Position numbers and translations under genes: made by a program. Positions 8,768 through 60,050 of a stretch of DNA of 64,000 bases are shown piece after piece (position 1 is the stretch's first letter; each line of letters starts with the position of its first letter). The stretch is taken from positions 20,584,001 to 20,648,000 of the forward strand of contig OZ024741.1 in assembly GCA_964016885.1 (NCBI GenBank). Direction: 5' to 3'. The stretch is from Eledone cirrhosa. Its lineage: Eukaryota. The notes under the pieces are model-generated. The model searched no databases. It saw nothing but the letters and a program-made list of their open reading frames with translations, and was not told the DNA's origin.

Positions 8768-11270
8768 TCATCATCATCATCATCACCGTTTTACGTCCGT
8801 TCTTCCACGCTAGCATGGGTTAGACGGGTTGTCCTGTTGTGGGCAGTGTCTGGTCGGCTGACCATGCCTTGCTCATACAGGAACTGATCTGGCTTGATTT
8901 CTACAGCTGGATGCCCTTCCTAACACCAACCTCATTTACAGTGAGTGCTGGGTGCTTTTTCGTGGCGCCTACACGTCCACTTTACAGTGTGGGCTGGGTG
9001 CTTTTTTGCCGTGGCACCTCCACGACCACCTTGCGGTGGGGGGGGGGGGGCATATTGTTTATATGCTTCAGCATGTACCCATGGGAGGTCGGGTACCCTG
9101 TATTACTGCGTGACGCCAGAAGTCACGGTCGTGTGTCATTGACTTTGAGAGGTGTAGTTGGGTAAGGTCGGCTTTTATCACCTCATCCCAAGTCATCTTG
9201 GGTCTCCCCACTCCGCGGTTTCCATCAACTTCTAGTGCTCTGCACCTTTTTATGCAGCTGTCATCCTTCATACGCATCACATGTCCATACCAGCGTAACC
9301 GCCTCTCCTGCACGCAGCATTTGATTCCTCTTATGCTCAGTCTCTCTCTCAATTCATTTATGCTTTGTCGTTCACGTATATTACTGTTACACATCCATCG
9401 GAGCATGCAGGCTTCGTTTCTCTCTAATCTACGTAAGTCTTCCACCTTCAGCGCCCAGGTCTCACTACCATGCAACATCGCTGTTCGGATACACGCATCA
9501 TACAGTCTGCCTTTCATTCTGAGGGAGAAGCCTTTTGCAGCTAGCAGTGGTAGTAGTTCCCTAAACTTCTTCCATCCCGTTCTTACCCTAGTTATTGTAC
9601 TTTCTGAGCACCCACCTCCGTTGCTAATTCGGTCACCTAGGTAGCAGAAGCTGTCTACTGTTTCTACAGGGCCCTCCCAGAGATTGGTGGTACTTGTTTC
9701 CTGTGGCTGTTTGCTTGCTGTTTCAGCACAGCTGCTGCATGTGAATCCTACATTCTTAATTAAGCTTCCTGAGATCCCGCTACATCTCTTGTGTACCCAT
9801 TGTTTGCATTTGGGGCAGAGAATGGAGTTCCTACCTACACCTTTCCTACATACTGAGCAAGGCCATTTCCCTGAGGGGATCTGGGTTCTGTTTTCTCGTC
9901 TACTTATAAGGACCTTAGTCTTTGTCATGTTGACTTTGAGGCCCTTTCTCTCTAGTCCCTGCTTCCAGGTTTGGAATTTATTCTCTAGTTCTACCATAGA
10001 TTCAGCTATGAGTGCGAGGTCATCAGCATACAGGAGTTCCCATGGGCATCCGGTCTTAAACTCCTCCGTTATTGCCTGCAGGACTATGATGAACAGGAGA
10101 GGGCTAAGAACAGAGCCCTGGTGGACCCCAACCTGTACGCTAAATTCCTCGCTATACTCATTGCCAATCCTAACTTTGCTGACTGCTCCCCTATACATGG
10201 CTTGTACCGCTTTCACAAGCCATTCATCTACTCCTAGTTTTCTAAGAGCCCACCAGATTACTGCACGTGGAACTCTGTCAAAGGCTTTCTCAAGGTCGAC
10301 AAATGCCAAGTAGAGTGGCTTACTTTTAGCTAGGTACTTTTCCTGTAATTGCCTCACAAGGAAGAGCGCATCAGTGGTGCCTTTCCCTGGAACAAACCCA
10401 AATTGCATCTCGTCTATATTCACCCGGTCCCTAATCAGCTGTGCTATAACTCTTTCTGTTACTTTCATGACCTGGTCCATCAACTTTATACCTCTATAGT
10501 TTCCTCTATCTAGTGCATCGCCTTTACCTTTGTAGCAGTTGACAATGATGCTACTGCACCAATCTTTTGGTATGGCCCCCTCTAGTATTACCTGGTTAAC
10601 GATACGTGTGGTTATAGTGTGACCTACAGACCCAGATGCCTTCAGCATCTCGGCAGCTATACCCGATGGACCGGTTGCCTTCCCTATCTTCATATCTCTG
10701 ATTGCCTTACTTACTACGCTGCCGCTGACTTGTACTGCTGGTCCCTCTATAGGGTCTACGTGGGGTAGGGTCTCTTCTTCCCATGCATTCTCCTCATTTA
10801 GTAATCTATCATAATGACTCTTCCATGCATCTTTCTTCTCAGCACTTGTGAGGGCAAGCTCACCTTTATCATTCCGGATACACTTCTCTCCAATGACATC
10901 ACAACTATCTCTGACACACTGCCTCGCAATCTTGAATACCTCCTGTTTCTGGTCCTCACGTTGTAAAACATGCTTGAATTTTCTATCCTCTGCTTCCCTC
11001 CTAGCTAAGTATACTTGTCGCCTAGCTTCCCTCTTGGTCTCTATGTAATGTACCCTGCTCCCCCCGTTCTTCCATTCTTTCCATGCCTGTCTCTTGGCCT
11101 TGACTGCTTCATCTACCTTATTGTTCCACCACCAAGTCACTCTCCTCCTGCTTGAGGTCTTACTCCAGCCACAAACCTCATCCGTCGCCTCTAGTAAGTT
11201 ATTTTTTAGGAACTCCCAGTTCTCTTCTACGTTAAATGTCTCTATCTGTTCTTCTTTACTGTCGTAGGTT
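8768..11270 (-). mobile_element. 5'-truncated RTE-clade LINE inserted in the satellite, with (ATG)n 3' tail
   Basis: RT ORF, about 300-bp 3' UTR and (CAT)n on + at about 8768-8785; satellite resumes in register at 11271. Confidence 0.95.
9068..11269 (-). CDS. RTE reverse transcriptase, N-truncated (no endonuclease), with internal PHD finger
   Basis: Motifs NYRGIKL, QFGF, FVDLEKAFD, GVHQGSVLSP, YADD, FCYLG and RLRWYGHV. The frame stays open upstream of the called start (11140) to the truncation point (TYDSKEEQIETF...). Confidence 0.93.
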   Translation of the reverse strand, partial: TYDSKEEQIETFNVEENWEFLKNNLLEATDEVCGWSKTSSRRRVTWWWNNKVDEAVKAKRQAWKEWKNGGSRVHYIETKREARRQVYLARREAEDRKFKHVLQREDQKQEVFKIARQCVRDSCDVIGEKCIRNDKGELALTSAEKKDAWKSHYDRLLNEENAWEEETLPHVDPIEGPAVQVSGSVVSKAIRDMKIGKATGPSGIAAEMLKASGSVGHTITTRIVNQVILEGAIPKDWCSSIIVNCYKGKGDALDRGNYRGIKLMDQVMKVTERVIAQLIRDRVNIDEMQFGFVPGKGTTDALFLVRQLQEKYLAKSKPLYLAFVDLEKAFDRVPRAVIWWALRKLGVDEWLVKAVQAMYRGAVSKVRIGNEYSEEFSVQVGVHQGSVLSPLLFIIVLQAITEEFKTGCPWELLYADDLALIAESMVELENKFQTWKQGLERKGLKVNMTKTKVLISRRENRTQIPSGKWPCSVCRKGVGRNSILCPKCKQWVHKRCSGISGSLIKNVGFTCSSCAETASKQPQETSTTNLWEGPVETVDSFCYLGDRISNGGGCSESTITRVRTGWKKFRELLPLLAAKGFSLRMKGRLYDACIRTAMLHGSETWALKVEDLRRLERNEACMLRWMCNSNIRERQSINELRERLSIRGIKCCVQERRLRWYGHVMRMKDDSCIKRCRALEVDGNRGVGRPKMTWDEVIKADLTQLHLSKSMTHDRDFWRHAVIQGTRPPMGTC

Positions 11271-14200
11271 TATATAGAGTAATGTAAATGTTTTGTGAGA
11301 TAAAGCCTTTACTGTGAAAATACAATAGTATATATAGAGTAATGTAAATGTTATGTGAGGTAAAGCCTTTACTGTGAAAATACAATACTATATATAGAGT
11401 AATGTAAATGTTATGTGAGGTAAAGCCTTTACTGTGAAAATACAATACTATATATAGAGTAATGTAAATGTTATGTGAGGTAAAGCCTTTACTGTGAAAA
11501 TACAATAGTATATATAGAGTAATGTAAATGCTATGTGAGGTAAAGCCTTTACTTTGAAAATACAATACTATACATAGAGTAACGTAAATGTTATGTGAGG
11601 TAAAGCCTTTACTGTGAAAATACAATACTATATATAGAGTAATGTAAATGTTATGTGAGGTAAAGCCTTTACTGTGAAAATACAATACTATATATAGAGT
11701 AATGTAAATGTTATGTGAGGTAAAGCCTTTACTGTGAAAATACAATACTATATATAGAGTAATGTAAATGTTATGTGAGGTAAAGCCTTTACTGTGAAAA
11801 TACAATAGTATATATAGAGTAATGTAAATGTTTTGTGAGATAAAGCCTTTACTGTGAAAATACAATGGTATATATAGAGTAATGTAAATGTTATGTGAGG
11901 TAAAGCCTTTACTGTGAAAATATAATAGTAAATATAGAGTAATGTAAATGTTATGTGAGGTAAAGCCTTTACTGTGAAAATACAATACTATATATAGAGT
12001 AATGTAAATGTTAAGTGAGATAAAGCCTTTACTGTGAAAATACAATACTATATATAGAGTAATGTAAATGCTATGTGAGGTAAAGCCTTTACTGTGAAAA
12101 TACAATACTATATATAGAGTAATGTAAATGTTATGTGAGATAAAGCCTTTACTGTGAAAATACAATAGTATATATAGAGTAATGTAAATGTTATGTGAGG
12201 TAAAGCCTTTACTTTGAAAATACAATACTATATATAGAGTAATGTAAATGTTATGTGAGGTAAAGCCTTTACTGTGAACATACAATAGTATATATACAGT
12301 AATGTAAATGCTATGTGAAATAAAGCCTTTACTGTGAAAATACAATAGTATATATAGAGTAATGTAAATGTTATGTGACGTAAAGCCTTTACTGTGAAAA
12401 TACAATACTATATATAGAGTAATGTAAATGTTATGTGAGGTAAAGCCTTTACTGTGAAAATACAATACTATATATAGAGTAATGTAAATGTTATGTGAGG
12501 TAAAGCCTTTACTGTGAAAATACAATAGTATATATAGAGTAATGTAAATGTTATGTGAGGTAAAGCCTTAACTGTGAAAATACAATAGTAAATATAGAGT
12601 AATGTAAATGTTATGTGAGGTAAAGCCTTTACTGTGAAGATACAATAGTATATATAGAGTAATGTAAATGTTATGTGAGGTAAAGCCTTTACTGTGAAAA
12701 TACAATACTATATATAGAGTAATGTAAATGTTATGTGAGGTAAAGCCTTTACTGTGAAAATACAATAGTATATATAGAGTAATGTAAATGTTATGTGAGG
12801 TAAAGCCTTTACTGTGAAAATACAATACTATATATGGTGTAATGTAAATGTTATGTGAGGTAAAGCCTTTACTGTGAAAATACAATACTATATATAGAGT
12901 AATGTAAATGTTATGTGAGGTAAAGCCTTTACTGTGAAAATACAATAGTATATATAGAGTAATGTAAATGTTATGTGAGGTAAAGCCTTTACTGTGAAAA
13001 TATAATAGTAAATATAGAGTAATGTAAATGTTATGTGAGGTAAAGCCTTTACTGTGAACATACAATAGTATATATAGAGTAATGTAAATGCTATGTGAGG
13101 TAAAGCCTTTACTGTGAAAATACAATAGTATATATGTGACGTAAAGCCTTTACTGTGAAAATACAATAGTATATATAGAGTAATGTAAATGTTTTGTGAG
13201 ATAAAGCCTTTACTGTGAAAATACAATAGTATATATAGAGTAATGTAAATGTTATGTGAGGTAAAGCCTTTACTGTGAAAATACAATACTATATATAGAG
13301 TAATGTAAATGTTATGTGAGGTAAAGCCTTTACTGTGAAAATACAATACTATATATAGAGTAATGTAAATGTTATGTGAGGTAAAGCCTTTACTGTGAAA
13401 ATACAATAGTATATATAGAGTAATGTAAATGCTATGTGAGGTAAAGCCTTTACTTTGAAAATACAATACTATACATAGAGTAACGTAAATGTTATGTGAG
13501 GTAAAGCCTTTACTGTGAAAATACAATACTATATATAGAGTAATGTAAATGTTATGTGAGGTAAAGCCTTTACTGTGAAAATACAATACTATATATAGAG
13601 TAATGTAAATGTTATGTGAGGTAAAGCCTTTACTGTGAAAATACAATACTATATATAGAGTAATGTAAATGTTATGTGAGGTAAAGCCTTTACTGTGAAA
13701 ATACAATAGTATATATAGAGTAATGTAAATGTTATATGAGGTAAAGCCTTTACTGTGAAAATACAATAGTATATATAGAGTAATGTAAATGTTATGTGAG
13801 GTAAAGCCTTTACTGTGAAAATATAATAGTAAATATAGAGTAATGTAAATGTTATGTGAGGTAAAGCCTTTACTGTGAACATACAATAGTATATATAGAG
13901 TAATGTAAATGCTATGTGAGGTAAAGCCTTTACTGTGAAAATACAATAGTATATATGTGACGTAAAGCCTTTACTGTGAAAATACAATAGTATATATAGA
14001 GTAATGTAAATGTTTTGTGAGATAAAGCCTTTACTGTGAAAATACAATAGTATATATAGAGTAATGTAAATGTTATGTGAGGTAAAGCCTTTACTGTGAA
14101 AATATAATAGTAAATATAGAGTAATGTAAATGTTATGTGAGGTAAAGCCTTTACTGTGAAAATACAATACTATATATAGAGTAATGTAAATGTTATGTGA

Positions 14201-17200
14201 GGTAAAGCCTTTACTGTGAAAATACAATAGTATATATAGAGTAATGTAAATGTTATGTGAGGTAAAGCCTTTACTTTGAAAATACAATACTATATATAGA
14301 GTAATGTAAATGTTATGTGAGGTAAAGCCTTTACTGTGAAAATACAATAGTATATATAGAGTAATGTAAATGTTATATGAGGTAAAGCCTTTACTGTGAA
14401 AATACAATAGTATATATAGAGTAATGTAAATGTTATGTGAGGTAAAGCCTTTACTGTGAAAATATAATAGTAAATATAGAGTAATGTAAATGTTATGTGA
14501 GGTAAAGCCTTTACTGTGAACATACAATAGTATATATAGAGTAATGTAAATGCTATGTGAGGTAAAGCCTTTACTGTGAAAATACAATAGTATATATGTG
14601 ACGTAAAGCCTTTACTGTGAAAATACAATAGTATATATAGAGTAATGTAAATGTTTTGTGAGATAAAGCCTTTACTGTGAAAATACAATAGTATATATAG
14701 AGTAATGTAAATGTTATGTGAGGTAAAGCCTTTACTGTGAAAATATAATAGTAAATATAGAGTAATGTAAATGTTATGTGAGGTAAAGCCTTTACTGTGA
14801 AAATACAATACTATATATAGAGTAATGTAAATGTTAAGTGAGATAAAGCCTTTACTGTGAAAATACAATACTATATATAGAGTAATGTAAATGCTATGTG
14901 AGGTAAAGCCTTTGCTGTGAAAATACAATACTATATATAGAGTAATGTAAATGTTATGTGAGATAAAGCCTTTACTGTGAAAATACAATAGTATATATAG
15001 AGTAATGTAAATGTTATGTGAGGTAAAGCCTTTACTTTGAAAATACAATACTATATATAGAGTAATGTAAATGTTATGTGAGGTAAAGCCTTTACTGTGA
15101 AAATACAATAGTATATATAGAGTAATGTAAATGTTATGTGAGATAAAGCCTTTACTGTGAAAATATAATAGTAAATATAGAGTAATGTAAATGTTATGTG
15201 AGGTAAAGCCTTTACTGTGAACATACAATAGTATATATACAGTAATGTAAATGCTATGAGGTAAAGCCTTTACTGTGAAAATACAATAGTATATATAGAG
15301 TAATGTAAATGTTATGTGACGTAAAGCCTTTACTGTGAAAATACAATACTATATATAGAGTAATGTAAATGTTATGTGAGGTAAAGCCTTTACTGTGAAA
15401 ATACAATACTATATATAGAGTAATGTAAATGTTATGTGAGGTAAAGCCTTTACTGTGAAAATACAATAGTATATATAGAGTAATGTAAATGTTATGTGAG
15501 GTAAAGCCTTAACTGTGAAAATACAATAGTAAATATAGAGTAATGTAAATGTTATGTGAGGTAAAGCCTTTACTGTGAAGATACAATAGTATATATAGAG
15601 TAATGTAAATGTTATGTGAGGTAAAGCCTTTACTGTGAAAATACAATACTATATATAGAGTAATGTAAATGTTATGTGAGGTAAAGCCTTTACTGTGAAA
15701 ATACAATAGTATATATAGAGTAATGTAAATGTTATGTGAGGTAAAGCCTTTACTGTGAAAATACAATACTATATATGGTGTAATGTAAATGTTATGTGAG
15801 GTAAAGCCTTTACTGTGAAAATACAATACTATATATAGAGTAATGTAAATGTTATGTGAGGTAAAGCCTTTACTGTGAAAATACAATACTATATATAGAG
15901 TAATGTAAATGTTATGTGAGGTAAAGCCTTTACTGTGAAAATACAATAGTATATATAGAGTAATGTAAATGTTATATGAGGTAAAGCCTTTACTGTGAAA
16001 ATACAATAGTATATATAGAGTAATGTAAATGTTATGTGAGGTAAAGCCTTTACTGTGAAAATATAATAGTAAATATAGAGTAATGTAAATGTTATGTGAG
16101 GTAAAGCCTTTACTGTGAACATACAATAGTATATATAGAGTAATGTAAATGCTATGTGAGGTAAAGCCTTTACTGTGAAAATACAATAGTATATATGTGA
16201 CGTAAAGCCTTTACTGTGAAAATACAATAGTATATATAGAGTAATGTAAATGTTTTGTGAGATAAAGCCTTTACTGTGAAAATACAATAGTATATATAGA
16301 GTAATGTAAATGTTATGTGAGGTAAAGCCTTTACTGTGAAAATACAATACTATATATAGAGTAATGTAAATGTTATGTGAGGTAAAGCCTTTACTGTGAA
16401 AATACAATACTATATATAGAGTAATGTAAATGTTATGTGAGGTAAAGCCTTTACTGTGAAAATACAATAGTATATATAGAGTAATGTAAATGTTATATGA
16501 GGTAAAGCCTTTACTGTGAAAATACAATAGTATATATAGAGTAATGTAAATGTTATGTGAGGTAAAGCCTTTACTGTGAAAATATAATAGTAAATATAGA
16601 GTAATGTAAATGTTATGTGAGGTAAAGCCTTTACTGTGAACATACAATAGTATATATAGAGTAATGTAAATGCTATGTGAGGTAAAGCCTTTACTGTGAA
16701 AATACAATAGTATATATAGAGTAATGTAAATGTTTTGTGAGATAAAGCCTTTACTGTGAAAATACAATAGTATATATAGAGTAATGTAAATGTTATGTGA
16801 GGTAAAGCCTTTACTGTGAAAATATAATAGTAAATATAGAGTAATGTAAATGTTATGTGAGGTAAAGCCTTTACTGTGAAAATACAATACTATATATAGA
16901 GTAATGTAAATGTTAAGTGAGATAAAGCCTTTACTGTGAAAATACAATACTATATATAGAGTAATGTAAATGCTATGTGAGGTAAAGCCTTTACTGTGAA
17001 AATACAATAGTAAATATAGAGTAATGTAAATGTTATGTGAGGTAAAGCCTTTACTGTGAAAATACAATAGTATATATAGAGTAATGTAAATGTTATGTGA
17101 GGTAAAGCCTTTACTGTGAAAATACAATACTATATATAGAGTAATGTAAATGTTATGTGAGGTAAAGCCTTTACTGTGAAAATATAATACTATATATAGA

Positions 17201-17562
17201 GTAATGTAAATGTTATGTGAGGTAAAGCCTTTACTGTGAAAATACAATACTATATATAGAGTAATGTAAATGTTATGTGAGGTAAAGCCTTTACTGTGAA
17301 AATACAATACTATATATAGAGTAATGTAAATGTTATGTGAGGTAAAGCCTTTACTGTGAAAATACAATAGTATATATAGAGTAATGTAAATGCTATGTGA
17401 GGTAAAGCCTTTACTTTGAAAATACAATACTATATATAGAGTAATGTAAATGTTATGTGAGGTAAAGCCTTTACTGTGAAAATACAATACTATATATAGA
17501 GTAATGTAAATGTTATGTGAGGTAAAGCCTTTACTGTGAAAATACAATACTATATATAGAGT
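11271..17562. repeat. 60-bp satellite, block 2
   Basis: Same unit and variants as block 1. Confidence 0.99.
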
Positions 17563-17799
17563 GGTTTCTTTATTTGCCACTAGGGCACAAAAGGTAGGGA
17601 CAGATACAAGGGGGGAAGTTTACATATAATTAACGAGTACAAAAATATAACAATGAAATAACAACAACAAACGAAGTCCTCAATAGGGAGGGGGCATTAA
17701 CATGGGTCGCACACACCCCGGAAAAAATGTGTAACCCTTCTCCTCAGGAGCACAAAGAGTAGGTGCTTCCCTCGTCTCCGCTTTTTCCTCTTCTTTCAC

Positions 17800-20700
17800 C
17801 TACAGGCTGATATAGAGAGAAGACCCATTCACTCTGGCCATTCTCCCTACTTTCACCCACCTTTCATAAAACTTGCTGGGGTAGAGCACCTCTCTCTCCA
17901 TTCTGATCCTTCTTTTAAAATGGTATTTGAAAAAGGGGACCAGTTGTTGGCCGGAGAGAAAGGTGTCTGACCTCAGCCCTTTCAGCCTCGTCCACCATAC
18001 AACTTCTTTAGCCATGGCTACCACACAGAGAAAAACCGCCTCTCCTTCGTTTTTGAAAGGGGGAGGCGGTTTGATCGTGACAATGGACTCGGTGGTCAAC
18101 CGGATTGGTCCCACCCTCGACAGTAGTCGTTCCACATAGCCCCACAGGTCAGCAATGCCTGGGCAGTGTACGAATGCGTGCGCAACGGTTTCGTCATCAT
18201 GCACGCATCTCGGACAGATCTTATTCAAAGGATCTCTACCCAGGCTCCCATGTCTGTGGAGCTTGTCTCGAACGGGTAGAGCCCCTCGGTAGCACTGCCA
18301 AGCCAGGGACTTTTGGAAGTTGTCCATCGGTCCAGGGCCAAACGTCCTACCGAACAGACTGGCCAGTTCATCTTCCTCCATGCCTAGAGCTTCTCCGAGA
18401 GCATCGTCGCACCTGCTGCGTACCAACCCTCTATAGAATGTCGAGGTGGAGTCTCCACTGATTGCCGGGTCCGCTTTCCAGAGGGCCGTGAGCGCCTGGG
18501 CACATTCAATGTGCCAGTCGCCCACTTTTCTCGGTCTTTGCTTGACCCAGGATTGCAGCTCGGTGAGCGAGACGAGTCTGGGAAAGGCTCGCCTCACAAA
18601 CGGGGCCCACACCGGTTGACCGGTGAGGAATACCTGGAGGTGCCGTAGCCTTAATGCGTGTTTACGCATCTGTAGCCACGGCATCCCCAGCCCTCCTTTC
18701 GAAGGGTGTTGACAGCAGATGGATCTCCTCACCAAAGGGGTCCGCTTGTTCCAAAGAAATTGGAACAGCGCGCACTCCATTTTGGCGAGTCTTTTCACTG
18801 GGCAAGGCACGACGGTCAAGCGGTAGTAGATGACGGATGCTATATAAGTATTCGCCACCTCCGCTCGACCTTTCAGGGATAGTTTGCACTGGGCCCACTT
18901 CTGGGTGAGTGCAAACACCCTGGCCGTTACCTCGTTCCAGTTTTTCTCCACCTGGAGGTCTGGTCCGAACCAGACCCCAAGCAGCTTCACCGGGCCCTCC
19001 GTCCAGCGTCCGACGACGTCGTTGGAGGGCATCGGTTTGCCTCTCCATGTTCCGAGTTGCAAACCGACGGACTTGTCCCGGTTCAGCTTGGCTCCTGTAA
19101 ACCTTTCATATTCCTCCAGTAAGGTGCCGATCTCACCGATTTGCGAGGTTTTCGACACCATTACTGTCACGTCATCGGCGTAGGCCGACGCCGCTTTCTG
19201 CAATCCCGGTTCCAAAGGGATGCCCTGCAACCGCTCCAACTTCCGCAGTAGTGGCTCAAGAGCCAGCACATACAGTAGGGAGGAGAGAGGGCATCCCTGT
19301 CGGATGGATCGCATGATTTGGAACGGCTCCGAGAGGTGGCCGTTCACCTTGACCCTTGAGCAGACGTTGCTGCTGTGCATCGCAGCAATCCAACCCCTGA
19401 AAACGGGTCCGAAGCCTGCCGCCGCGAGCACCGCATCCAGGTAACGATGGTCAACCCTATCGAAAGCTTTAGATTGATCCAAGTTGATCAGGGCCCCACC
19501 AAAGCCGGGTTCATTCCCTACCCTCTCTATGATGTATCGCATAAGGTGGAGATTGTCGTGAATGGACCTGGACGGGATTGCGCATGTCTGCGCTTCTCCC
19601 ACCAGGTTTCCAACGACAAGCGCCAACCTCTTCGCTAACACCTTGGCCAAAATCTTTAACTCTGTATTTAGCAGAGTTATGGGCCTGAAGTTACTTATGT
19701 CATCCCCCTTGTTCTCATCCTTCCTCACCAGCGTAACTACGCCCTTGGTCACAGAACTGGGAATTCTCCCGTTCTGCTGCCAGTTGCAGTAGACCGCTTC
19801 GAGGATATCGGAGAACAAGTCCGGCATCGCTACATATAGCTCGTATGGTAGACCATCGAGACCCGGGGATTTGCGTTTGCCGCATTGGCTCAGCGCCGCC
19901 CCTATCTCAGCAGCTGAAATCGTCCTTTCGCAGGACTTCGCCTCCGCGTCCGAGAGGCGCGGCAGACCGTCGAGGTATGGATTGAAATCCATAGTCTCAC
20001 CCGGCGCGCCGCCCCTCTCGAACAGTCGTGCAAAGTGCCGCTGAAAGGCCGCACACATCTGCCCAGGTTCAAGGATCACACGCCCATCCTGGTTCTTCAA
20101 AGACCGAATCGTGGACTTGTTCCCACTTTTTGCCTCTGTCACTCGGGCCCAGCTTACAGCTTTGGCTCCCTCATTACCCAGAGCACGTATTTTACTCCTG
20201 ACAACGCAGCCTTCATGCTTCACCTCAAAGAACTGGTCTAAGGCCATTCTTGATGCCAGCACGCCGGCTACATTGCCACTCCTAATCGCCTCTTCTACTC
20301 TATCTACTAATTCCCTTTCCGTCTTGTTCCTATCCCTTGCTAATTCCTGACTAAAACCTATCGATTCTATTCTAATTGCTCTCTTAAGAGAGCTCCACCA
20401 CCTGTTGTTGACAATTGCCCCTGTCAAACTCTGCTTAACTAACGTGCTAATCCGTTTACTGTAAGCTTTGCTTCTCGGTAAGGACAAGTTCAGCTTCCAG
20501 TAACCGGGTCCCTGTCTATGGGTTCTATCAAGGTTGGCTATGCAGGTCACTAACTTGTGATCCGAATAGTCAACCATGAACATTTTTGGACAGCTAAATG
20601 TGTCCCTATCGTTCTCTCTAACTAGGACCCTATCTAGGTACGACCTAGATGTTCCACTGCGATTGGTCCACGTCCATAGTGGTACAGTCGGAAAATCTAG

Positions 20701-21237
20701 TCGATATCTATCGGCCAGGTCAAATCGGCCGATTAACCTTTTGAGGCTTTTACACCCCCCTCTATTGGCACATGCCCCTACATAGTCCCAACGTGCATCC
20801 AGGATACCATTCCAGTCCCCCACTAAAAGCAAGGAGCGGGACGTTCCCAGAAAAGTTTCCAGACGTTGGAAGTATTCCGGCCGCGCTGCCCAAAAAGGGG
20901 CGTACACAGCTATTAGTCTAAGGGCTCCACTTTCACTACTGCCGACGTCTAAAACCACCAGTCGACCCTCCGGGTCCAGGTGCACCTTCTGTATGGCGAG
21001 GCCCAGGTGTTTTCGCAGCAGAACGACAACTCCACCCCCACCCCCCGGTTGACAGAGAGATGCGAAGATCTCAAAGTCGTCGAAGAGGGGCGCCAGTTGG
21101 TGCTCGCTGCTGATCCTGGACTCGCAAATAGCCATTACATCCATTCTATGTGACCTGAGATCGTTTAAAAGTTTGCCTTGTTTCCAAGACAGTCCCAGGC
21201 CACGTACATTCAGACACCCAACTCTTATATCAGCCAT
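17800..21237 (-). CDS. Tx1/L1-type ORF2: APE endonuclease, reverse transcriptase and C-terminal zinc motif (1145 aa)
   Basis: APE motifs CLNVRG, GDWN, YLDR and SDH; GPGYWKLN; KSPGLDG, NFRPITLLN, LDQSKAFD, IRQGCPLS, YADD; GGLG; CPRC..ETVAHAFVHC. No stops. Confidence 0.96.
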   Translation of the reverse strand: MADIRVGCLNVRGLGLSWKQGKLLNDLRSHRMDVMAICESRISSEHQLAPLFDDFEIFASLCQPGGGGGVVVLLRKHLGLAIQKVHLDPEGRLVVLDVGSSESGALRLIAVYAPFWAARPEYFQRLETFLGTSRSLLLVGDWNGILDARWDYVGACANRGGCKSLKRLIGRFDLADRYRLDFPTVPLWTWTNRSGTSRSYLDRVLVRENDRDTFSCPKMFMVDYSDHKLVTCIANLDRTHRQGPGYWKLNLSLPRSKAYSKRISTLVKQSLTGAIVNNRWWSSLKRAIRIESIGFSQELARDRNKTERELVDRVEEAIRSGNVAGVLASRMALDQFFEVKHEGCVVRSKIRALGNEGAKAVSWARVTEAKSGNKSTIRSLKNQDGRVILEPGQMCAAFQRHFARLFERGGAPGETMDFNPYLDGLPRLSDAEAKSCERTISAAEIGAALSQCGKRKSPGLDGLPYELYVAMPDLFSDILEAVYCNWQQNGRIPSSVTKGVVTLVRKDENKGDDISNFRPITLLNTELKILAKVLAKRLALVVGNLVGEAQTCAIPSRSIHDNLHLMRYIIERVGNEPGFGGALINLDQSKAFDRVDHRYLDAVLAAAGFGPVFRGWIAAMHSSNVCSRVKVNGHLSEPFQIMRSIRQGCPLSSLLYVLALEPLLRKLERLQGIPLEPGLQKAASAYADDVTVMVSKTSQIGEIGTLLEEYERFTGAKLNRDKSVGLQLGTWRGKPMPSNDVVGRWTEGPVKLLGVWFGPDLQVEKNWNEVTARVFALTQKWAQCKLSLKGRAEVANTYIASVIYYRLTVVPCPVKRLAKMECALFQFLWNKRTPLVRRSICCQHPSKGGLGMPWLQMRKHALRLRHLQVFLTGQPVWAPFVRRAFPRLVSLTELQSWVKQRPRKVGDWHIECAQALTALWKADPAISGDSTSTFYRGLVRSRCDDALGEALGMEEDELASLFGRTFGPGPMDNFQKSLAWQCYRGALPVRDKLHRHGSLGRDPLNKICPRCVHDDETVAHAFVHCPGIADLWGYVERLLSRVGPIRLTTESIVTIKPPPPFKNEGEAVFLCVVAMAKEVVWWTRLKGLRSDTFLSGQQLVPFFKYHFKRRIRMEREVLYPSKFYERWVKVGRMARVNGSSLYISL

Positions 21238-21258
21238 GTTGGTTAAAAGAGGAAGGAC

Positions 21259-22998
21259 CTACCTGTTCGGCTCCTGAGGAGCAGGTTGCACAATATCCAT
21301 GGGCGTATTGGAGGGGTTGTTTGGTGGGGTGTTGTTCTGTGGTGGAGTGGGGGTGTTTGGTGAGGTGTGGGTGGGGAAACGTTTCAAGAGGACGCGGTTA
21401 TAGGGTCGAGTACATGTTTTCCCCACGTCCTCAGGAAAGTTCTCTCTTAGTTTTGCATAGGTGTCCATTGGGAGTCTTATCATTTTTAAATGCGGTTTGT
21501 TGGCCGCGCTTGCAAAGAATTGCCCTTCAGTTTCCACCAAAGGGTCTTTGTGTATTGTTTTTACTAGTTCTTTGTTATTTGTGTTAATGTATGTATACTG
21601 TTTTATTTGTGTTGTGTTTGTTTGTTGTTCTTGTGTGTGCTTACGTTTTGTTGTATGTGTTATGTTTTGGGGTGGGGCGGATTTTGTTTGTTCTGTTTGT
21701 TTTGTTTTTGTTGGTGGTTGTGTGTTTGTTTCGTTTATGTTCGAGTGGTGCTTTCTTTTTTTCCTTTTTACAGGTTGGAAGGGTTCCCCCTCTTCGTCAC
21801 TAGGTGCCGTTTCCGCTGGGTCCTCGTCCGTGCTGTCGGGTAGTGGTGTATTTTGGGGTTTTGTTGTATTTGTGTGTGTTTTGGGAGTTGTTTTGGGTGG
21901 GGCCGTGTCTTGTGTTATTTTTCCCTGTTGTTTTTGTTGTTGTTGTGGTGGTGGTGGTGGAGGTGGTGGTGGTGGTGGTGGTGGTGGTGGTGTGTGGGGT
22001 GTAGGCAAAAGAGCCTTTTTTTTTGTCAATTGAGGACAAGCAGCCCTTAGATGACCCCTGCTTGAACAGTAGTAACATATGGGCCTCCTACCCTCGGCTG
22101 AAATATATATAAATGTTTCTCCATCGAGGGACACCCTCTGTGGTATTCTAGCGATTCGTTCTGGTCTCATTTGGACCAGAACCTCCACGCTCAAACCGCC
22201 GAAAACGTCTGTGGTGACTTCTCCTACTGAGAGGATTCCGTCCTCGTCTTCTAAAAATCCTGTTAGTACCCAGGAAATGCATGCATTTGGCCGGATTCCG
22301 GAGACCCTTATCTTCTGCGTTCTTTTCCCTAAATATGTGGGGAAAAATGTATATATCTTGGAAACAATTGGTGCCACAGAGTATTTCCTGGCCGTCAATT
22401 GATCCTTCATTAGGACCGTTATATTCCCATAGAGTGGCCCTTTTTGTATGAACGATATATCACTCCACACATTTTTTAGGACCAGCTCAATCTCTTTTTG
22501 GGATAATTGAGTTGGTTTCCTTGTTATGTTGAAAATTGTTCTGAAAGATATCGTTCTTAGCGTCGTGTCTCTTTTGATTTCTTGTGGGGAGGTGATTGTG
22601 AAGTCTCCTCCTTCTTTGAAAGTTACATACTGTTTCGCTTCCTTCATCTTTTCTCTCAGAGTTGTAATGTCCAGTTGCTTGCAGGTTTGTGTTTTCCGGA
22701 CCGCCTGTGCAAAGGAGGTACCAGTAGTGGGTTCACTTTGTTTGGTGTTATCGTTATTTTTTCCTTGGTTGGTGTTGTGACTATTGCTGTTATTGTCGTT
22801 GATGTTTTTGTCTGCGTTTATGTGACTTTCTGGGTTTTCACCCATTTCTACAAATTTTTCTTTTAATTCCGTGTTCCATGTTTCTTTTGCAGAAGTGAGG
22901 AGGGAAGACTTAGAGCCTTGTGCTTCTAGCTTCTCTGTATCACCTTTCTTAGGGGGCGTGGCTTTCACGTTAGGATGAGATGTGAAAATTCCGTCCAT
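21259..22998 (-). CDS. Tx1-type ORF1 (gag-like) with CCHC zinc knuckle
   Basis: CYYCSSRGHLRAAC (C-x2-C-x4-H-x4-C), poly-Pro/Gln tract and basic KRKKRK. First ATG is at 22998 (the track starts at TTG 23091). Confidence 0.88.
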   Translation of the reverse strand: MDGIFTSHPNVKATPPKKGDTEKLEAQGSKSSLLTSAKETWNTELKEKFVEMGENPESHINADKNINDNNSNSHNTNQGKNNDNTKQSEPTTGTSFAQAVRKTQTCKQLDITTLREKMKEAKQYVTFKEGGDFTITSPQEIKRDTTLRTISFRTIFNITRKPTQLSQKEIELVLKNVWSDISFIQKGPLYGNITVLMKDQLTARKYSVAPIVSKIYTFFPTYLGKRTQKIRVSGIRPNACISWVLTGFLEDEDGILSVGEVTTDVFGGLSVEVLVQMRPERIARIPQRVSLDGETFIYISAEGRRPICYYCSSRGHLRAACPQLTKKKALLPTPHTPPPPPPPPPPPPPPPQQQQKQQGKITQDTAPPKTTPKTHTNTTKPQNTPLPDSTDEDPAETAPSDEEGEPFQPVKRKKRKHHSNINETNTQPPTKTKQTEQTKSAPPQNITHTTKRKHTQEQQTNTTQIKQYTYINTNNKELVKTIHKDPLVETEGQFFASAANKPHLKMIRLPMDTYAKLRENFPEDVGKTCTRPYNRVLLKRFPTHTSPNTPTPPQNNTPPNNPSNTPMDIVQPAPQEPNR

Positions 22999-23210
22999 TT
23001 CTATTAGTTTGCCGTAATAAATTTTTAACTGGAAAATTCGCCCCAAAAAGGGGCGAAAATAAATAAACTCGAAGTTTGACGACCAAGGCAAGGGGTTAAC
23101 GTATATTACAGTATAAAAAAATTAATCAAAACTCACTTTTTGAGTAAGTAAATCCGACTCGGTAGCCGAGCTTGTTCACACACGTCAACACACGTCTCTC
23201 GTATACGAGA

Positions 23211-26200
23211 TGTTATGTGAGATATTATGTGAGGTAAAGCCTTTACTGTGAAAATACAATAGTAAATATAGAGTAATGTAAATGTTATGTGAGGTAAAGC
23301 CTTTACTGTGAAAATATAATAGTAAATATAGAGTAATGTAAATGTTATGTGAGGTAAAGCCTTTACTGTGAAAATACAATAGTATATATAGAGTAATGTA
23401 AATGTTATGTGAGGTAAAGCCTTTACTGTGAAAATATAATAGTAAATATAGAGTAATGTAAATGTTATGTGAGGTAAAGCCTTTACTGTGAACATACAAT
23501 AGTATATATACAGTAATGTAAATGCTATGTGAGGTAAAGCCTTTACTGTGAAAATACAATAGTATATATAGAGTAATGTAAATGTTATATGAGGTAAAGC
23601 CTTTACTGTGAAAATACAATAGTATATATAGAGTAATGTAAATGTTATATGAGGTAAAGCCTTTACTGTGAAAATACAATAGTATATATAGAGTAATGTA
23701 AATGTTATGTGAGGTAAAGCCTTTACTGTGAAAATATAATAGTAAATATAGAGTAATGTAAATGTTATGTGAGGTAAAGCCTTTACTGTGAACATACAAT
23801 AGTATATATAGAGTAATGTAAATGCTATGTGAGGTAAAGCCTTTACTGTGAAAATACAATAGTATATATAGAGTAATGTAAATGTTATGTGAGGTAAAGC
23901 CTTTACTGTGAAAATACAATACTATATATAGAGTAATGTAAATGTTATGTGAGGTAAAGCCTTTACTGTGAAAATACAATAGTATATATAGAGTAATGTA
24001 AATGTTATATGAGGTAAAGCCTTTACTGTGAAAATACAATAGTATATATAGAGTAATGTAAATGTTATGTGTGGTAAAGCCTTTACTGTGAAAATACAAT
24101 ACTATATATAGAGTAATGTAAATGTTATGTGAGGTAAAGCCTTTACTGTGAAAATACAATAGTATATATAGAGTAATGTAAATGTTATATGAGGTAAAGC
24201 CTTTACTGTGAAAATACAATAGTATATATAGAGTAATGTAAATGTTATGTGAGGTAAAGCCTTTACTGTGAAAATACAATAGTATATATAGAGTAATGTA
24301 AATGTTATATGAGGTAAAGCCTTTACTGTGAAAATACAATAGTATATATAGAGTAATGTAAATGTTATGTGAGGTAAAGCCTTTACTGTGAACATACAAT
24401 AGTATATATAGAGTATTGTAAATGCTATGTGAGGTAAAGCCTTTACTGTGAAAATACAATAGTATATATGTGACGTAAAGCCTTTACTGTGAAAATACAA
24501 TAGTATATATAGAGTAATGTAAATGTTATGTGAGGTAAAGCCTTTACTGTGAAAATACAATACTATATATAGAGTAATGTAAATGTTATGTGAGGTAAAG
24601 CCTTTACTGTGAAAATACAATACTATATATAGAGTAATGTAAATGTTATGTGAGGTAAAGCCTTTACTGTGAAAATACAATAGTATATATAGAGTAATGT
24701 AAATGCTATGTGAGGTAAAGCCTTTACTTTGAAAATACAATACTATATATAGAGTAATGTAAATGTTATGTGAGGTAAAGCCTTTACTGTGAAAATACAA
24801 TACTATATATAGAGTAATGTAAATGTTATGTGAGGTAAAGCCTTTACTGTGAAAATACAATAGTATATATAGAGTAATGTAAATGTTATATGAGGTAAAG
24901 CCTTTACTGTGAAAATACAATAGTATATATAGAGTAATGTAAATGTTATGTGAGGTAAAGCCTTTACTGTGAAAATATAATAGTAAATATAGAGTAATGT
25001 AAATGTTATGTGAGGTAAAGCCTTTACTGTGAACATACAATAGTATATATAGAGTAATGTAAATGCTATGTGAGGTAAAGCCTTTACTGTGAAAATACAA
25101 TAGTATATATGGTGTAATGTAAATGTTATGTGAGGTAAAGCCTTTACTGTGAAAATACAATACTATATATGGTGTAATGTAAATGTTATGTGAGGTAAAG
25201 CCTTTACTGTGAAAATACAATACTATATATAGAGTAATGTAAATGTTATATGAGGTAAAGCCTTTACTGTGAAAATACAATAGTATATATAGAGTAATGT
25301 AAATGTTATGTGAGGTAAAGCCTTTACTGTGAAAATACAATACTATATATAGAGTAATGTAAATGCTATGTGAGGTAAAGCCTTTACTGTGAAAATACAA
25401 TAGTATATATGTGACGTAAAGCCTTTACTGTGAAAATACAATAGTATATATAGAGTAATGTAAATGTTATGTGAGGTAAAGCCTTTACTGTGAAAATACA
25501 ATAGTATATATAGAGTAATGTAAATGTTATGTGAGGTAAAGCCTTTACTGTGAAAATACAATAGTATATATAGAGTAATGTAAATGTTATGTGAGGTAAA
25601 GCCTTTACTGTGAAAATACAATACTATATATAGAGTAATGTAAATGTTATGTGAGGTAAAGCCTTTACTGTGAAAATACAATAGTATATATAGAGTAATG
25701 TAAATGTTATGTGAGGTAAAGCCTTTACTGTGAAAATACACTAGTATTTATAGAGTAATGTAAATGTTATGTGAGGTAAAGCCTTTACTGTGAAAATACA
25801 CTAGTATATATAGAGTAATGTAAATGTTATGTGAGGTAAAGCCTTTACTGTGAAAATACACTAGTATATATAGAGTAATGTAAATGTTATGTGAGGTAAA
25901 GCCTTTACTGTTAAAATACACTAGTATATATAGAGTAATGTAAATGTTATGTGAGGTAAAGCCTTTACTGTGAAAATACACTAGTATATATAGAGTAATG
26001 TAAATGTTATGTGAGGTAAAGCCTTTACTGTGAAAATACAATAGTATATATAGAGTAATGTAAATGTTATGTGAGGTAAAGCCTTTACTGTGAAAATACA
26101 ATAGTATATATAGAGTAATGTAAATGTTATGTGAGGTAAAGCCTTTACTGTGAAAATACAATAGTAAATATAGAGTAATGTAAATGTTATGTGAGGTAAA

Positions 26201-27675
26201 GCCTTTACTGTGAAAATACAATAGTAAATATAGAGTAATGTAAATGTTATGTGAGGTAAAGCCTTTACTGTGAAAATACAATAGTATATATGGTGTAATG
26301 TAAATGTTATGTGAGGTAAAGCCTTTACTGTGAAAATACAATACTATATATGGTGTAATGTAAATGTTATGTGAGGTAAAGCCTTTACTGTGAAAATACA
26401 ATACTATATATAGAGTAATGTAAATGTTATATGAGGTAAAGCCTTTACTGTGAAAATACAATAGTATATATAGAGTAATGTAAATGTTATGTGAGGTAAA
26501 GCCTTTACTGTGAAAATACAATACTATATATAGAGTAATGTAAATGCTATGTGAGGTAAAGCCTTTACTGTGAAAATACAATAGTATATATGTGACGTAA
26601 AGCCTTTACTGTGAAAATACAATAGTATATATAGAGTAATGTAAATGTTATGTGAGGTAAAGCCTTTACTGTGAAAATACAATAGTATATATAGAGTAAT
26701 GTAAATGTTATGTGAGGTAAAGCCTTTACTGTGAAAATACAATAGTATATATAGAGTAATGTAAATGTTATGTGAGGTAAAGCCTTTACTGTGAAAATAC
26801 AATACTATATATAGAGTAATGTAAATGTTATGTGAGGTAAAGCCTTTACTGTGAAAATACAATAGTATATATAGAGTAATGTAAATGTTATGTGAGGTAA
26901 AGCCTTTACTGTGAAAATACACTAGTATTTATAGAGTAATGTAAATGTTATGTGAGGTAAAGCCTTTACTGTGAAAATACACTAGTATATATAGAGTAAT
27001 GTAAATGTTATGTGAGGTAAAGCCTTTACTGTGAAAATACACTAGTATATATAGAGTAATGTAAATGTTATGTGAGGTAAAGCCTTTACTGTTAAAATAC
27101 ACTAGTATATATAGAGTAATGTAAATGTTATGTGAGGTAAAGCCTTTACTGTGAAAATACACTAGTATATATAGAGTAATGTAAATGTTATGTGAGGTAA
27201 AGCCTTTACTGTGAAAATACAATAGTATATATAGAGTAATGTAAATGTTATGTGAGGTAAAGCCTTTACTGTGAAAATACAATAGTATATATAGAGTAAT
27301 GTAAATGTTATGTGAGGTAAAGCCTTTACTGTGAAAATACAATAGTAAATATAGAGTAATGTAAATGTTATGTGAGGTAAAGCCTTTACTGTGAAAATAC
27401 AATACTATATATAGAGTAATGTAAATGTTATGTGAGGTAAAGCCTTTACTGTGAAAATACACTAGTATATATAGAGTAATGTAAATGTTATGTGAGGTAA
27501 AGCCTTTACTGTGAAAATACAATAGTATATATAGAGTAATGTAAATGTTATGTGAGGTGAAGCCTTTACTGTGAAAATACAATACTATATATAGAGTAAT
27601 GTAAATGTTATGTGAGGTAAAGCCTTTACTGTGAAAATACAATACTATATATGGAGTAATGTAAATGCTAAAGGG
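23211..27675. repeat. 60-bp satellite, block 3, ending in the MITE terminal inverted repeat ...GTAAATGCTAAAGGG
   Basis: Same unit; the last unit runs into TAAATGCTAAAGGG at 27662-27675. Confidence 0.98.
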
Positions 27676-27969
27676 TGATGCCAACTTTGTGAGTGAAACA
27701 CGTGTATTGAGAATAAACTTTTACTTTTTTTTTTATGTTTTTAAAAAAAGTTAATAAAAAGAAACAACTAAATATTCATCATGTCCAGTTTTGTAGGATT
27801 TGAAACTCATAACATTGAAATAGCCACTTAATGTAATATGAAAGCTACTTCTCAATACTTCGTTCTTTTCATACTAAATCACTTGTGTTCCTATTATTCT
27901 AAACTTCCAGTCATTTCTATACACCAACACACTTCTCCTTGACCTTCTCCTCTTACAATCGTTTCTATA

Positions 27970-28120
27970 TTTCATCTGTCACCCACCTTGTGGATTGTCT
28001 CTCTGTTGACCACTGGCCACTGGTCTCTGTCCTCTGAGACATATATCATCTGCCTGTCACCCACTTTGTGGAGTGTCTCTCTGTTGACCACTGGTCACTA
28101 GTCTCTGTCCTTTGAGGCAT
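27970..28120. repeat. Two-copy diverged tandem duplication (about 75-80 bp)
   Basis: CTGTCACCCAC..TGTGGA.TGTCTCTCTGTTGACCACTGG..TCTCTGTCCT occurs twice. Confidence 0.8.
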
Positions 28121-28203
28121 TTTTGCCCATCACTGTCATTGACAGCATTTGGCTGTTTTTGCAATGAGTCTTCTAATTTTTATATGTATATTCTAAAGTA
28201 TTT

Positions 28204-28375
28204 ATCATCATCATCACACATCTACACTAACATGGGTTAGACGAGTTGTCCCATTGTGAAACAAGCCAGATCAGATGACCATGCTTTGTTCATACAGAAC
28301 TGTTTCTGGCTTGGTTTCTATGGCTGGATGCCCTTCCTAATGCCAACCACACAGTCAGGAATCACATTTACAGTG
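28204..28375 (-). mobile_element. RTE 3'-tail fragment or RTE-tailed SINE
   Basis: (CAT)n, CATGGGTTAGACG and GGCTGGATGCCCTTCCTAA..CCAACC, homologous to 8768-8945. Confidence 0.75.
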
Positions 28376-29414: not shown

Positions 29415-29482
29415 TTCTAGGGCTTGACATAACAGCTGACCACATCTTATTCATATATTTTGTTATATATAATCTAATCTAA

Positions 29483-30767: not shown

Positions 30768-30990
30768 TTAACCCTTTAGCATTTACATTACTCTATATTT
30801 ACTATTATATTTTCACAGTAAACGATTTATCTCAATTAATTATCCTCACATAATATCGAATCTATCAGATTTTGATATTATTTATTTTGAGAACAATATC
30901 TTTACATAAGTATGAGTAGCCAGTTACAGCTGGTTTGAACAGAAAGGGGGGAGACAATTCTGGCCGGATACAGCCGGTTTAAAGGGTTAA
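30768..30990 (+). mobile_element. piggyBac-type MITE, copy 1
   Basis: TTAA-CCCTTTAGCATTTA ... TTTAAAGGG-TTAA (small deletion in right TIR). Confidence 0.9.
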
Positions 30991-31204: not shown

Positions 31205-31419
31205 TTAACCCTTTACCATTTACATTACTCTATATATACTATTGTATTTTCACAGTAAACACTTTATCTCACATAATATCGAATCTACAAGATTTTGATA
31301 TTATTTATTTTGAGAACAATACCTTCACATAAGTATGAGTGGCTAGTTACGGCTGGTTTGAATAGAAAGAGATGAGAGAATTCTGGCCGGATATGCTGGT
31401 TTAAATGCTAAAAGGTTAA
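31205..31419 (+). mobile_element. piggyBac-type MITE, copy 2, inserted in the splice-donor TTAA
   Basis: TTAA-CCCTTTACCATTTA ... TAAATGCTAAAAGG-TTAA. Confidence 0.9.
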
Positions 31420-59161: not shown

Positions 59162-59376
59162 TTAACCCTTTAGCATTTAAACCGGCCGTATCCGGCCTGA
59201 ATTCTCTCACTTCTTTCTGTTCAAACTGGCTTTATCCAGCCACTTATACAGATGTTAAGGTATAGTTAAGGTATAAATAATATGAAAATCTCATAGATTT
59301 GATATTATGTGAGGTAAAGCCTTTAGTGTCAAAATAGAATAGCATATATCGAATAATGTAAATGCTAAAGGGTTAA
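59162..59376 (-). mobile_element. piggyBac-type MITE, copy 3 (same orientation as the satellite)
   Basis: TTAA-CCCTTTAGCATTTA ... GATATTATGTGAGGTAAAGCCTTTA..TAATGTAAATGCTAAAGGG-TTAA. Confidence 0.92.
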
Positions 59377-59479: not shown

Positions 59480-60050
59480 TGTCTTTAACAGTAAGTCATA
59501 AGAGGCAGATCACCATTATGTTCCTGCAATATTCTCCGTCATGCATAGAAGGGTCTCGGTGTTGTAACCTGTCCAGTCCAGTCTTTGATGTTGTCAGATT
59601 AATAATTTCTTTGTCTGCTTTTTCATCTCCCTCCGTTGACTGTGCCCTGAAGGATGGTTTTGGACAAGGAGTTGTAGCGGGATATATGACCATAAGAGGC
59701 AAGCTTCTGTCTTTTCACCATCTTAACCCTTTAGCATTTACATTACTCTATATTTACTATTATCTTTTCATATAAAAGGCTTTGCCTCACATAATTATCT
59801 CACATAATATCGAATCTATGAGATTTTGATATTATTTATGTTGAGAACAATACCTTAACATCAGAATGAGCAGCCAGTTACAGCCGGTTTGAACAGAAAG
59901 AGGAGAGAAAATTCTGGCTGGATATGGCCAGTTTAAATGCTAAAGGGTTAAGGAGTGGTTCCTGTCTGCCAGCATATTTGTTAACTTGCTGCCTGACAAA
60001 GCTGTTTTGTGTTCCATGTATGAGATGTGTAACACAAATGACAATATTGT
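59480..60050 (-). pseudogene. Degraded RTE-like fragment interrupted by MITE copy 4
   Basis: RKLASYGHI..SKTILQGTVNGG..NIKDWTG-like residues; sequence continues past the MITE. Confidence 0.6.
59723..59951 (+). mobile_element. piggyBac-type MITE, copy 4
   Basis: TTAA-CCCTTTAGCATTTA ... TAAATGCTAAAGGG-TTAA with perfect 14-bp TIRs. Confidence 0.93.

What the first reader, a model, noticed from the sequence alone, without database searches (positions are those of the whole stretch)
17563..23240. Intact Tx1-clade LINE sitting in tandem repeats of a TTAA DNA transposon: possible parallel to the Xenopus Tx1L/Tx1D system
Seen: both ORFs are open, the 5' UTR is present, the 3' end is AATAAAGAAACC with no poly(A), and the element lies in the MITE-derived array. 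Established: many Tx1-clade elements are target-sequence specific, and Xenopus Tx1L inserts into internal tandem repeats of the TTAA-flanked, TIR-bounded Tx1D element. Inference: this may be an active LINE that targets the MITE or its satellite, giving a three-tier system (piggyBac, MITE/satellite, LINE). Caveats: there is one insertion only, and the junction lacks a clean TSD (about 7 nt of the unit missing, plus extra GATATTATGTGA).
Basis: partly seen in the sequence, partly recalled or inferred. Interest (0 to 1): 0.7.

Follow-up and report, generated by a model that had tools for sequence, protein, structure and literature searches.

The report
Intact LINE inside a MITE-derived satellite
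An intact LINE retrotransposon, likely from an octopus, sits in a satellite array whose unit matches the end of a small TTAA-flanked DNA transposon, but most of its likely several hundred sister copies appear to lie elsewhere, so this is likely an ordinary landing rather than a targeted one.

Summary
The anatomy is real. A 5.65-kb two-ORF L1/Tx1-type LINE (17563-23209, minus strand, catalytic residues intact, no poly(A), 7-nt target deletion) lies in a 60-bp satellite whose unit matches nt 13-72 of a TTAA/CCCTTT MITE with four dispersed copies in the window. The 'extra' 12 nt at the 5' junction match the MITE's own internal duplication and are not a TSD.

Targeting is not shown. An unrelated RTE LINE sits in the same array. 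Reads from one public run imply about 340 ORF1-bearing copies and at least 1,100 reads from 3' junctions with an SphI site in the flank, which the satellite lacks. The one other 3' junction displayed joins LINE sequence. In favour of targeting, contigs under two other organism labels cross the same satellite junction while carrying alleles unlike the window copy; orthology or a preference explains this.

Best reading: an ordinary, probably old insertion of a multi-copy family (0.55). A preference for the MITE or satellite remains open (0.3). Tx1 families that target non-autonomous DNA transposons are already known (Xenopus, crocodilians), so even then it is a new member of a known kind.

The parts
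17563..23209 (-). Full-length L1/Tx1-type LINE, 5647 bp, no poly(A), no TSD
22999..23209 (-). 5' leader, 211 nt; begins with a 12-nt palindrome; folds better than shuffles (z -2.85, 2 of 200)
21259..22998 (-). ORF1, 579 aa, one CCHC knuckle (aa 307-323), likely RRM-like part before it, Pro/Thr-rich tail
17800..21237 (-). ORF2, 1145 aa: APE endonuclease (N10, E39, Y112, D141, N143, D202, H227), RT (YADD 686-689), C-terminal CCHC-type finger
17563..17799 (-). 3' UTR, 237 nt, ends AATAAAGAAA plus CC; two other records stop at 17565, so the CC is likely not part of every copy
23210..23233 (-). 5' flank: a 72-nt variant of the satellite unit with a 12-nt internal duplication (1 of 328 units in the window), matching the 13-nt duplication of the long MITE variant
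1..27676 (-). 60-bp satellite array (with 41-bp deletion units and higher-order blocks); unit matches MITE nt 13-72; ends in the MITE's CCCTTT terminus without TTAA; runs off the window's left edge
8769..11268 (-). 5'-truncated RTE-type LINE with (CAT)n tail in the same array at another position of the unit (clade name from recall; RVT_1 and PHD by Pfam)
30768..30990 (+). MITE copy, long variant (internal duplication), TTAA at both ends
31205..31419 (+). MITE copy, short variant, inserted at a GTTTAA splice donor
59162..59376 (-). MITE copy, short variant
59723..59951 (+). MITE copy, long variant

Best explanation
This is an intact two-ORF L1/Tx1-type LINE inside a satellite whose unit matches a TTAA-flanked MITE; it likely belongs to a young family of several hundred copies that likely inserts without a strong preference for this repeat, and this copy is likely one older insertion shared by related genomes. 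Mechanism (established for APE-type LINEs, inferred here): ORF2p nicks the bottom strand at 5'-GAGT/AATG-3', a T/A step as in the L1 consensus TTTT/AA. It primes reverse transcription on an RNA that ends AAUAAAGAAA without poly(A), likely adding two untemplated bases. Second-strand joining lost 7 nt of target instead of making a duplication. The 5' flank was likely already a 72-nt variant unit. The satellite itself likely arose by tandem amplification of nt 13-72 of the MITE.
For: (1) An unrelated RTE LINE sits in the same 19.5 kb of array at another unit position. (2) Run X11 behaves as an SphI + MluCI double digest: 36,972 molecules run from 22283 to 22028, matching the window's sites. Against a median of 110 reads in the 11 one-start joint rows (of 15 shown; 343 hidden), that is about 340 ORF1-bearing loci. 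(3) In X11 the first bin holds 145,400 read-bases from pairs whose SphI mate lies beyond the 3' end, while depth at 17690 and 17732 is only 30 and 21. At least about 1,120 and more likely about 2,000 reads must lie on the last 69 nt, or 10-18 loci. Random flanks predict 13-18 loci for about 1,350 ends (7-10 for 700 ends). The array has 0 SphI sites in 19,529 nt and no 6-mer within two changes of one in the unit tested, and all 4 MITE copies have an MluCI site and no SphI site. (4) The one other 3' junction shown (X11, 18319 to 17565, 119 reads, 1 start) joins LINE sequence; the X2 contig stops at 17565. (5) X1 and X2 share junction details that look like one event: same 5' breakpoint, same rare 72-nt unit, no gaps, and in X1 the same 3' breakpoint (records 1, 8, 16), at 0.6-0.7% divergence.
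Against: (1) Every shown contig that crosses a junction enters the satellite at the same site: 2 of 2 in X1 and 1 of 1 in X2 (only 24 of 32,808 pieces are shown). (2) The window copy shares alleles with many X11 loci (G22153 in 29% of 73,926 reads; C22848 in 52 of 52), while the X1 and X2 contigs running into the same junction carry the other alleles. Simple orthology then needs chimeric contigs, gene conversion or a source-copy role. (3) If most copies are young, a sampled copy is unlikely to be one of the few old shared ones. (4) The X11 argument is bookkeeping on bin means; loose ends at 17563-17565 are not among the 24 rows shown (3,496 hidden). MITE copies that lost their MluCI site would also yield some such reads. 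(5) The LINE-to-LINE joint has only 29 letters on its short side and may be a template-jump dimer, which says nothing about targets. (6) X11 depth at 23137 is only 8, so no full-length 5' junction with an SphI flank was seen where 3-5 were expected.
Confidence: 0.55

Rival explanations
1. The family prefers the left end of the MITE and its satellite, as Tx1L prefers Tx1D. Copies transcribed from inside the array would carry a short target-derived 5' extension (the 72-nt unit's duplication) and reproduce the same junction; other copies insert in tandem or off target.
For: Same junction under the window and two other organism labels, on two allele sets. The 72-nt variant is 1 of 328 units and is the one at the junction. 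Tx1 families that target non-autonomous DNA transposons are known, and a target-derived 5' extension is described for SINEU-2B (PMC4494074). The target is abundant: 4 MITE copies in 36 kb.
Against: At least about 1,120 X11 reads come from 3' ends with an SphI site in the flank. The X2 3' contig stops at the element end. None of the 4 dispersed MITE copies in the window holds an insertion, and no other piece of the LINE is in the window. A shared CC and 7-nt deletion fit one event better than several. The endonuclease hairpin loop has L1 length (9 residues, T189-S199), not the 11 of Tx1L-EN; this is weak evidence.
Confidence: 0.3
2. The family has some other preference (a microsatellite, another repeat or its own copies), or many copies are passive duplicates of a LINE-plus-satellite block spread by array recombination, and the satellite is not the nicked target.
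For: One 3' end abuts LINE ORF2 sequence. Allele classes of roughly 100 loci each in X11 (22105 and 22153) could be block duplicates. Microsatellite-targeting Tx1 lineages exist.
Against: Only one copy lies in 27.6 kb of array. X4 depth is four times higher at the 3' UTR (8,078) than in ORF1 (about 2,000), as expected from 5' truncation during retrotransposition rather than from block duplication.
Confidence: 0.15

Closest known systems
Xenopus laevis Tx1L inserted in Tx1D (non-autonomous piggyBac)
   Same: Two-ORF APE-type LINE lying in repeats that belong to a TTAA-type non-autonomous DNA transposon (Tx1D described as non-autonomous piggyBac in PMC4494074).
   Different: Tx1L's specificity is shown genome-wide and by nicking assays; here it is not. 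This junction has a 7-nt deletion, whereas Tx1L makes a duplication (recalled as 23 bp, not checked; PMC85248 was not held). The array here is a 20-kb-plus satellite with no intact TTAA end in view. The endonuclease loop is 9, not 11, residues.
Crocodilian Tx1-Mar and Tx1-9_AMi (targets Mariner-N4_AMi and Harbinger)
   Same: Tx1-type LINEs in non-autonomous DNA transposons; target-site deletions and target-derived 5' extensions occur in their partner SINEU.
   Different: There the preference was counted over many copies (more than 20% of flanks) and checked on truncated copies; here 1 copy is read in full.
Recently active L1-Tx1 families of Octopus vulgaris (PMC13282606)
   Same: 13 families, 421 near-full-length young insertions, about 5.4 kb each. 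Named relatives of this element are cephalopod: ORF1 in Octopus sinensis and Argonauta hians, ORF2 in Acanthosepion pharaonis.
   Different: That paper gives no target analysis in the parts read; whether this family is among the 13 was not testable (library on Zenodo).
Human LINE-1 ORF2p
   Same: Best solved-structure match, E 1e-53 over aa 4-857; same catalytic residues and loop length; nick at a T/A step.
   Different: No poly(A), no TSD, and ORF1 is a CCHC-knuckle (type I) protein, not Transposase_22.

Membership tests
L1/Tx1 group of non-LTR retrotransposons | ORF2 with APE endonuclease, RT and C-terminal zinc finger, most like L1 ORF2p | tested here: met
L1/Tx1 group of non-LTR retrotransposons | Two non-overlapping ORFs, no LTRs | tested here: met
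Tx1 clade | RT phylogeny groups with named Tx1 elements (Tx1L, Keno, Kibi) | not testable with these tools
   The quick tree (27 unnamed rows, careful search unfinished) only shows a well-supported clade with the 38-70% relatives.
Tx1 clade | ORF1 of RRM/CCHC type rather than Transposase_22 | tested here: met
   CCHC knuckle weak in the element; a knuckle family hit in 10 of 18 relatives scanned, 6 above the curated cut-off; RRM/ZCCHC3-like look-alikes at 0.90; criterion from PMC5203782
Target-specific Tx1 family (Tx1L-like) | More than 20% of flanks are one repeat type at one position | tested here: inconclusive
   3 of 3 shown junction-crossing contigs are satellite; 1 shown read joint is not; bookkeeping suggests 10-18 non-satellite loci in X11
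Target-specific Tx1 family (Tx1L-like) | Endonuclease nicks the target sequence specifically | not testable with these tools
   needs a nicking assay
Tx1L/Tx1D-like system | Target repeats are internal to an intact TTAA-flanked, TIR-bounded element | tested here: inconclusive
   Visible array end has the TIR start but ATCA for TTAA; the other end is outside the window and no genome is held
piggyBac-type MITE | TTAA at both ends and TIRs starting CCC | tested here: met
   4 of 4 dispersed copies have TTAA at both ends; 7 of 8 ends start CCC, one CCT
piggyBac-type MITE | Autonomous piggyBac partner with the same ends | not testable with these tools
   No transposase family hit in 65 window ORFs outside the arrays; no genome held

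The most novel reading that the evidence does not exclude
A cephalopod Tx1-type LINE has independently evolved to target the left end of a piggyBac-type MITE and the satellite built from it, and carries a piece of that target as its own 5' end: a mollusc counterpart of Xenopus Tx1L/Tx1D in which a TE-born satellite serves as a safe harbour.
Probability: 0.25. Interest if true: 0.5.

Novelty: new member of a known kind. Interest (0 to 1): 0.28.

Why it matters
As best read, this is an ordinary but well-preserved LINE from a young family, and a clean case of a satellite born from a MITE end. If the preference is real, it would extend transposon-targeting Tx1 elements from vertebrates to a cephalopod and add a sequence-selective APE endonuclease with an L1-length loop. 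That would help study how targeting evolves, and the intact copy makes it directly testable. The category itself is known.

Tried and rejected
No genome is held, so flanks could not be counted directly. The 3' end motif found 0 matches in viral contigs and 0 in genome contigs. ORF2 relatives: 0 loci in viral contigs (81 candidates) and 71 in metagenome contigs (of 157 candidates). The best 8 of these are 27-31% identical over long stretches and none carries the MITE, the unit or the UTRs (two short chance-level hits), so they say nothing about targets. The ORF1 word search found 0 of 1,263 candidates; the HMMER search found 136 hits, some only through the proline run. Rfam over 17400-32000 gave one sub-threshold hit (MIR5638, 33 of 500 bits) on an inverted repeat outside the element; rejected. 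The 3' UTR does not fold better than shuffles (z +0.41). A fold-back origin of the 5' end from the flank was considered (z -3.6 with flank) and rejected, because the leader is not a reverse-complement copy of the flank and folds nearly as well without it. The extra 12 nt as a TSD or insertion scar was rejected. Depth ratios between runs were not used as copy numbers, since overlapping short contigs inflate the sums. Four look-ups of earlier findings returned nothing.
Full report
OBSERVATION. The element lies on the minus strand at 17563-23209. ORF1 (22998-21259, 579 aa) and ORF2 (21237-17800, 1145 aa) are open. ORF2 has APE, RT and zf-RVT domains, matches human L1 ORF2p best among solved structures (E 1e-53, aa 4-857), and keeps N10, E39, D141, N143, D202, H227 and YADD. 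ORF1 has one CCHC knuckle. Its relatives carry knuckles too (10 of 18 scanned), and its look-alikes include RRM/ZCCHC3-type clusters. This fits the type I ORF1 that PMC5203782 links to Tx1 (passages). The Tx1 label itself could not be tested by phylogeny, because no named reference came from any call. The named relatives are all cephalopod: ORF1 in Octopus sinensis (32%) and Argonauta hians, ORF2 in a cuttlefish (53%). The host is therefore likely an octopod (inference).

THE ARRAY. It fills 1-27667 apart from two insertions; 312 of 328 anchored units are 60 bp and 97.9% alike. The unit matches nt 13-72 of a 215-229-bp MITE with TTAA at both ends and CCCTTT termini, present four times in the 36 kb to the right. 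The visible array end keeps the MITE terminus but not TTAA. No transposase family hit any of 65 ORFs outside the arrays. A 5'-truncated RTE-type LINE lies in the same array at about 8769-11268, at another position of the unit, so the array takes in unrelated LINEs.

THE JUNCTION. Seven nt of the unit are missing and there is no TSD. The extra 12 nt on the 5' side are not a scar. Two of four MITE copies carry a 13-nt duplication at the same place. In run X4, 32 contigs match from 23210 onward and are preceded by plain satellite (table 7). The X1 and X2 junction contigs both end at 23239, exactly 30 nt past the element; a contig entering plain satellite would run to 23254. Logan contigs are built from distinct 31-mers (PMC12424806, passages), so the next 31-mer likely also exists without the LINE (inference). 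The 5' flank is thus a natural 72-nt variant unit, though it is 1 of 328 in this window. The 3' end is likely AATAAAGAAA: the X2 contig and the X11 joint both stop at 17565. The implied bottom-strand nick, GAGT/AATG, shares the T/A step of the L1 consensus TTTT/AA (PMC1950540, passages).

OTHER COPIES. No genome is held. One search listed 13 runs, of which 4 were laid on 17530-23240 at 85% likeness. For targeting or orthology: X1 contigs cross both junctions into satellite at the same sites (17541-17878, depth 12.2; 22637-23239, depth 10.2), and X2 crosses the 5' one (depth 4.6). X1 and X2 bear organism labels different from each other and from X4/X11. Divergence from the window copy is 0.64% (17 of 2,646), 0.72% (10 of 1,385) and, for X4, 0.55% (5 of 913). 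At 22153 and 22848 the window's letter is shared by many X11 reads (29% of 73,926; 52 of 52), while X1, X2 and the X4 majority have the other letter. Contigs are simplified majority paths (SPAdes-type heuristics; tip and bubble removal recalled). A single satellite copy can therefore capture the path while unique low-depth flanks are pruned, and alleles can be mixed.

AGAINST STRICT TARGETING. X11 behaves as a double digest with SphI on mate 1 and MluCI on mate 2: 36,972 molecules run from 22283 to 22028, where the window has these sites. One-start joints carry 87-143 reads (11 of 15 rows shown), giving about 340 ORF1-bearing loci. X4 depth is about four times higher in the distal 3' UTR than in ORF1, suggesting on the order of 1,000 3' ends. 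An MluCI site lies 66 nt inside the 3' end. Pairs with mate 1 on the plus strand need an SphI site beyond that end, and they give 145,400 read-bases in the first bin. Even if all 1,982 reads that run over the stretch's ends were flank-only, about 1,120 reads must lie on the element's last 69 nt; the likelier figure is about 2,000. That equals 10-18 loci, against 13-18 expected for 1,350 random flanks (7-10 for 700). The array has no SphI site, and each MITE copy has an MluCI site and no SphI site. ORF1 bins without such a site pair have depth 0.6-13, so leakage is too small to explain it.

LIMITS OF THAT ARGUMENT. It rests on bin means, an assumed size window and how the tool counts run-overs. 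Related subfamilies above 85% are included. MITE copies that lost their MluCI site, or tandem LINE copies, would contribute. The loose ends themselves were not displayed (3,496 rows hidden). At the 5' end, depth 8 at 23137 shows no full-length junction with an SphI flank where 3-5 were expected. The single displayed non-satellite joint (18319 to 17565) may be a template-jump dimer.

MECHANISM. Shown: intact ORFs, end structure, junction geometry, MITE match of the unit, a second LINE in the array, and the same junction in other runs. Established for APE-type LINEs: target-primed reverse transcription with target choice set mainly by the endonuclease (PMC1919474 and PMC4494074, passages). Inferred: copy number, non-satellite flanks, two untemplated bases, a pre-existing 72-nt unit, orthology. 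I put an ordinary, likely older insertion of a family without strong preference at 0.55, a preference for the MITE or satellite at 0.3, and another target or passive block duplication at 0.15. These odds are judgement, not a computed result.

WHAT IS KNOWN. Tx1 of Xenopus inserts into Tx1D, a non-autonomous piggyBac. Crocodilian Tx1-Mar families prefer Mariner-N4_AMi, Tx1-9_AMi prefers Harbinger elements, and satellites appear among Tx1 targets in the figure legend (PMC4494074; passages and part 3 of 5 read; supplements not seen). Octopus vulgaris has 13 recently active L1-Tx1 families with 421 near-full-length copies and 6 active piggyBac families (PMC13282606, parts 1-2 of 3). Its supplement was listed but not read and, like the Zenodo library, may name this family. 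L1-Tx1 is an expanded coleoid family (PMC8967140, passages). PMC1635306 was seen as passages. I found no report of a target-specific Tx1 family in a cephalopod in the listings of searches; Repbase Reports and subscription papers are not covered. The Tx1L duplication length, and the names RTE, Charlie/hAT, CRE and RPIA used here, are recalled and come from no call.

VERDICT. Observation confirmed; targeting unproven and somewhat disfavoured. It is a new member of a known kind whichever way the test falls. Interest 0.28; 0.5 if the preference is real (probability 0.25 for the full novel reading).

Noticed in passing
window 8769-11268 (-): 5'-truncated RTE-type LINE with an open 541-aa RT+PHD frame and (CAT)n tail inside the satellite; a close sister fragment lies at about 50700-51850. 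Higher-order satellite blocks recur on both sides of it.
   Followed up: partly
window 29853-29915 and 31148-31203 (+): Two likely exons translating as DNQVIGIGSGSTIAFAVERL and QRVEEEKLTVKCVPTSFQ, recalled as ribose-5-phosphate isomerase; the MITE at 31205 sits in the GTTTAA splice donor of the second and keeps the GT. The satellite would lie upstream of these exons or in an intron of the gene.
   Followed up: partly
window 34510-44480 and 44472-46850: A second large satellite (52-bp unit, 192 copies) abuts a broken hAT-like transposase (frames 45308-46828, minus; Charlie/Buster type by recall, no Pfam hit). The unit contains TCTAGA, recalled as the Charlie target motif.
   Followed up: no
window about 28574-29413: About 840-bp element with CAGAGGTTCT-type inverted ends and a near-perfect 8-bp flanking repeat: likely a non-autonomous hAT.
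   Followed up: no
window 56081-56729: GC-rich stretch whose plus frame reads like the restriction-like endonuclease end of a CRE-type non-LTR element (recall; no Pfam hit).
   Followed up: no
window 23225-27667 versus 1-17562: Several unit variants occur only right of the LINE and others only left of it, so the two parts of the array homogenise somewhat apart.
   Followed up: partly
window 22999-23209 (-): The LINE leader has several compact hairpins and starts with a 12-nt palindrome at the junction; role unknown.
   Followed up: partly
window 29976-30535, 32139-32594, 61129-61437: Further minisatellites (45, 25 and 61 bp units); the window is unusually rich in tandem arrays.
   Followed up: no
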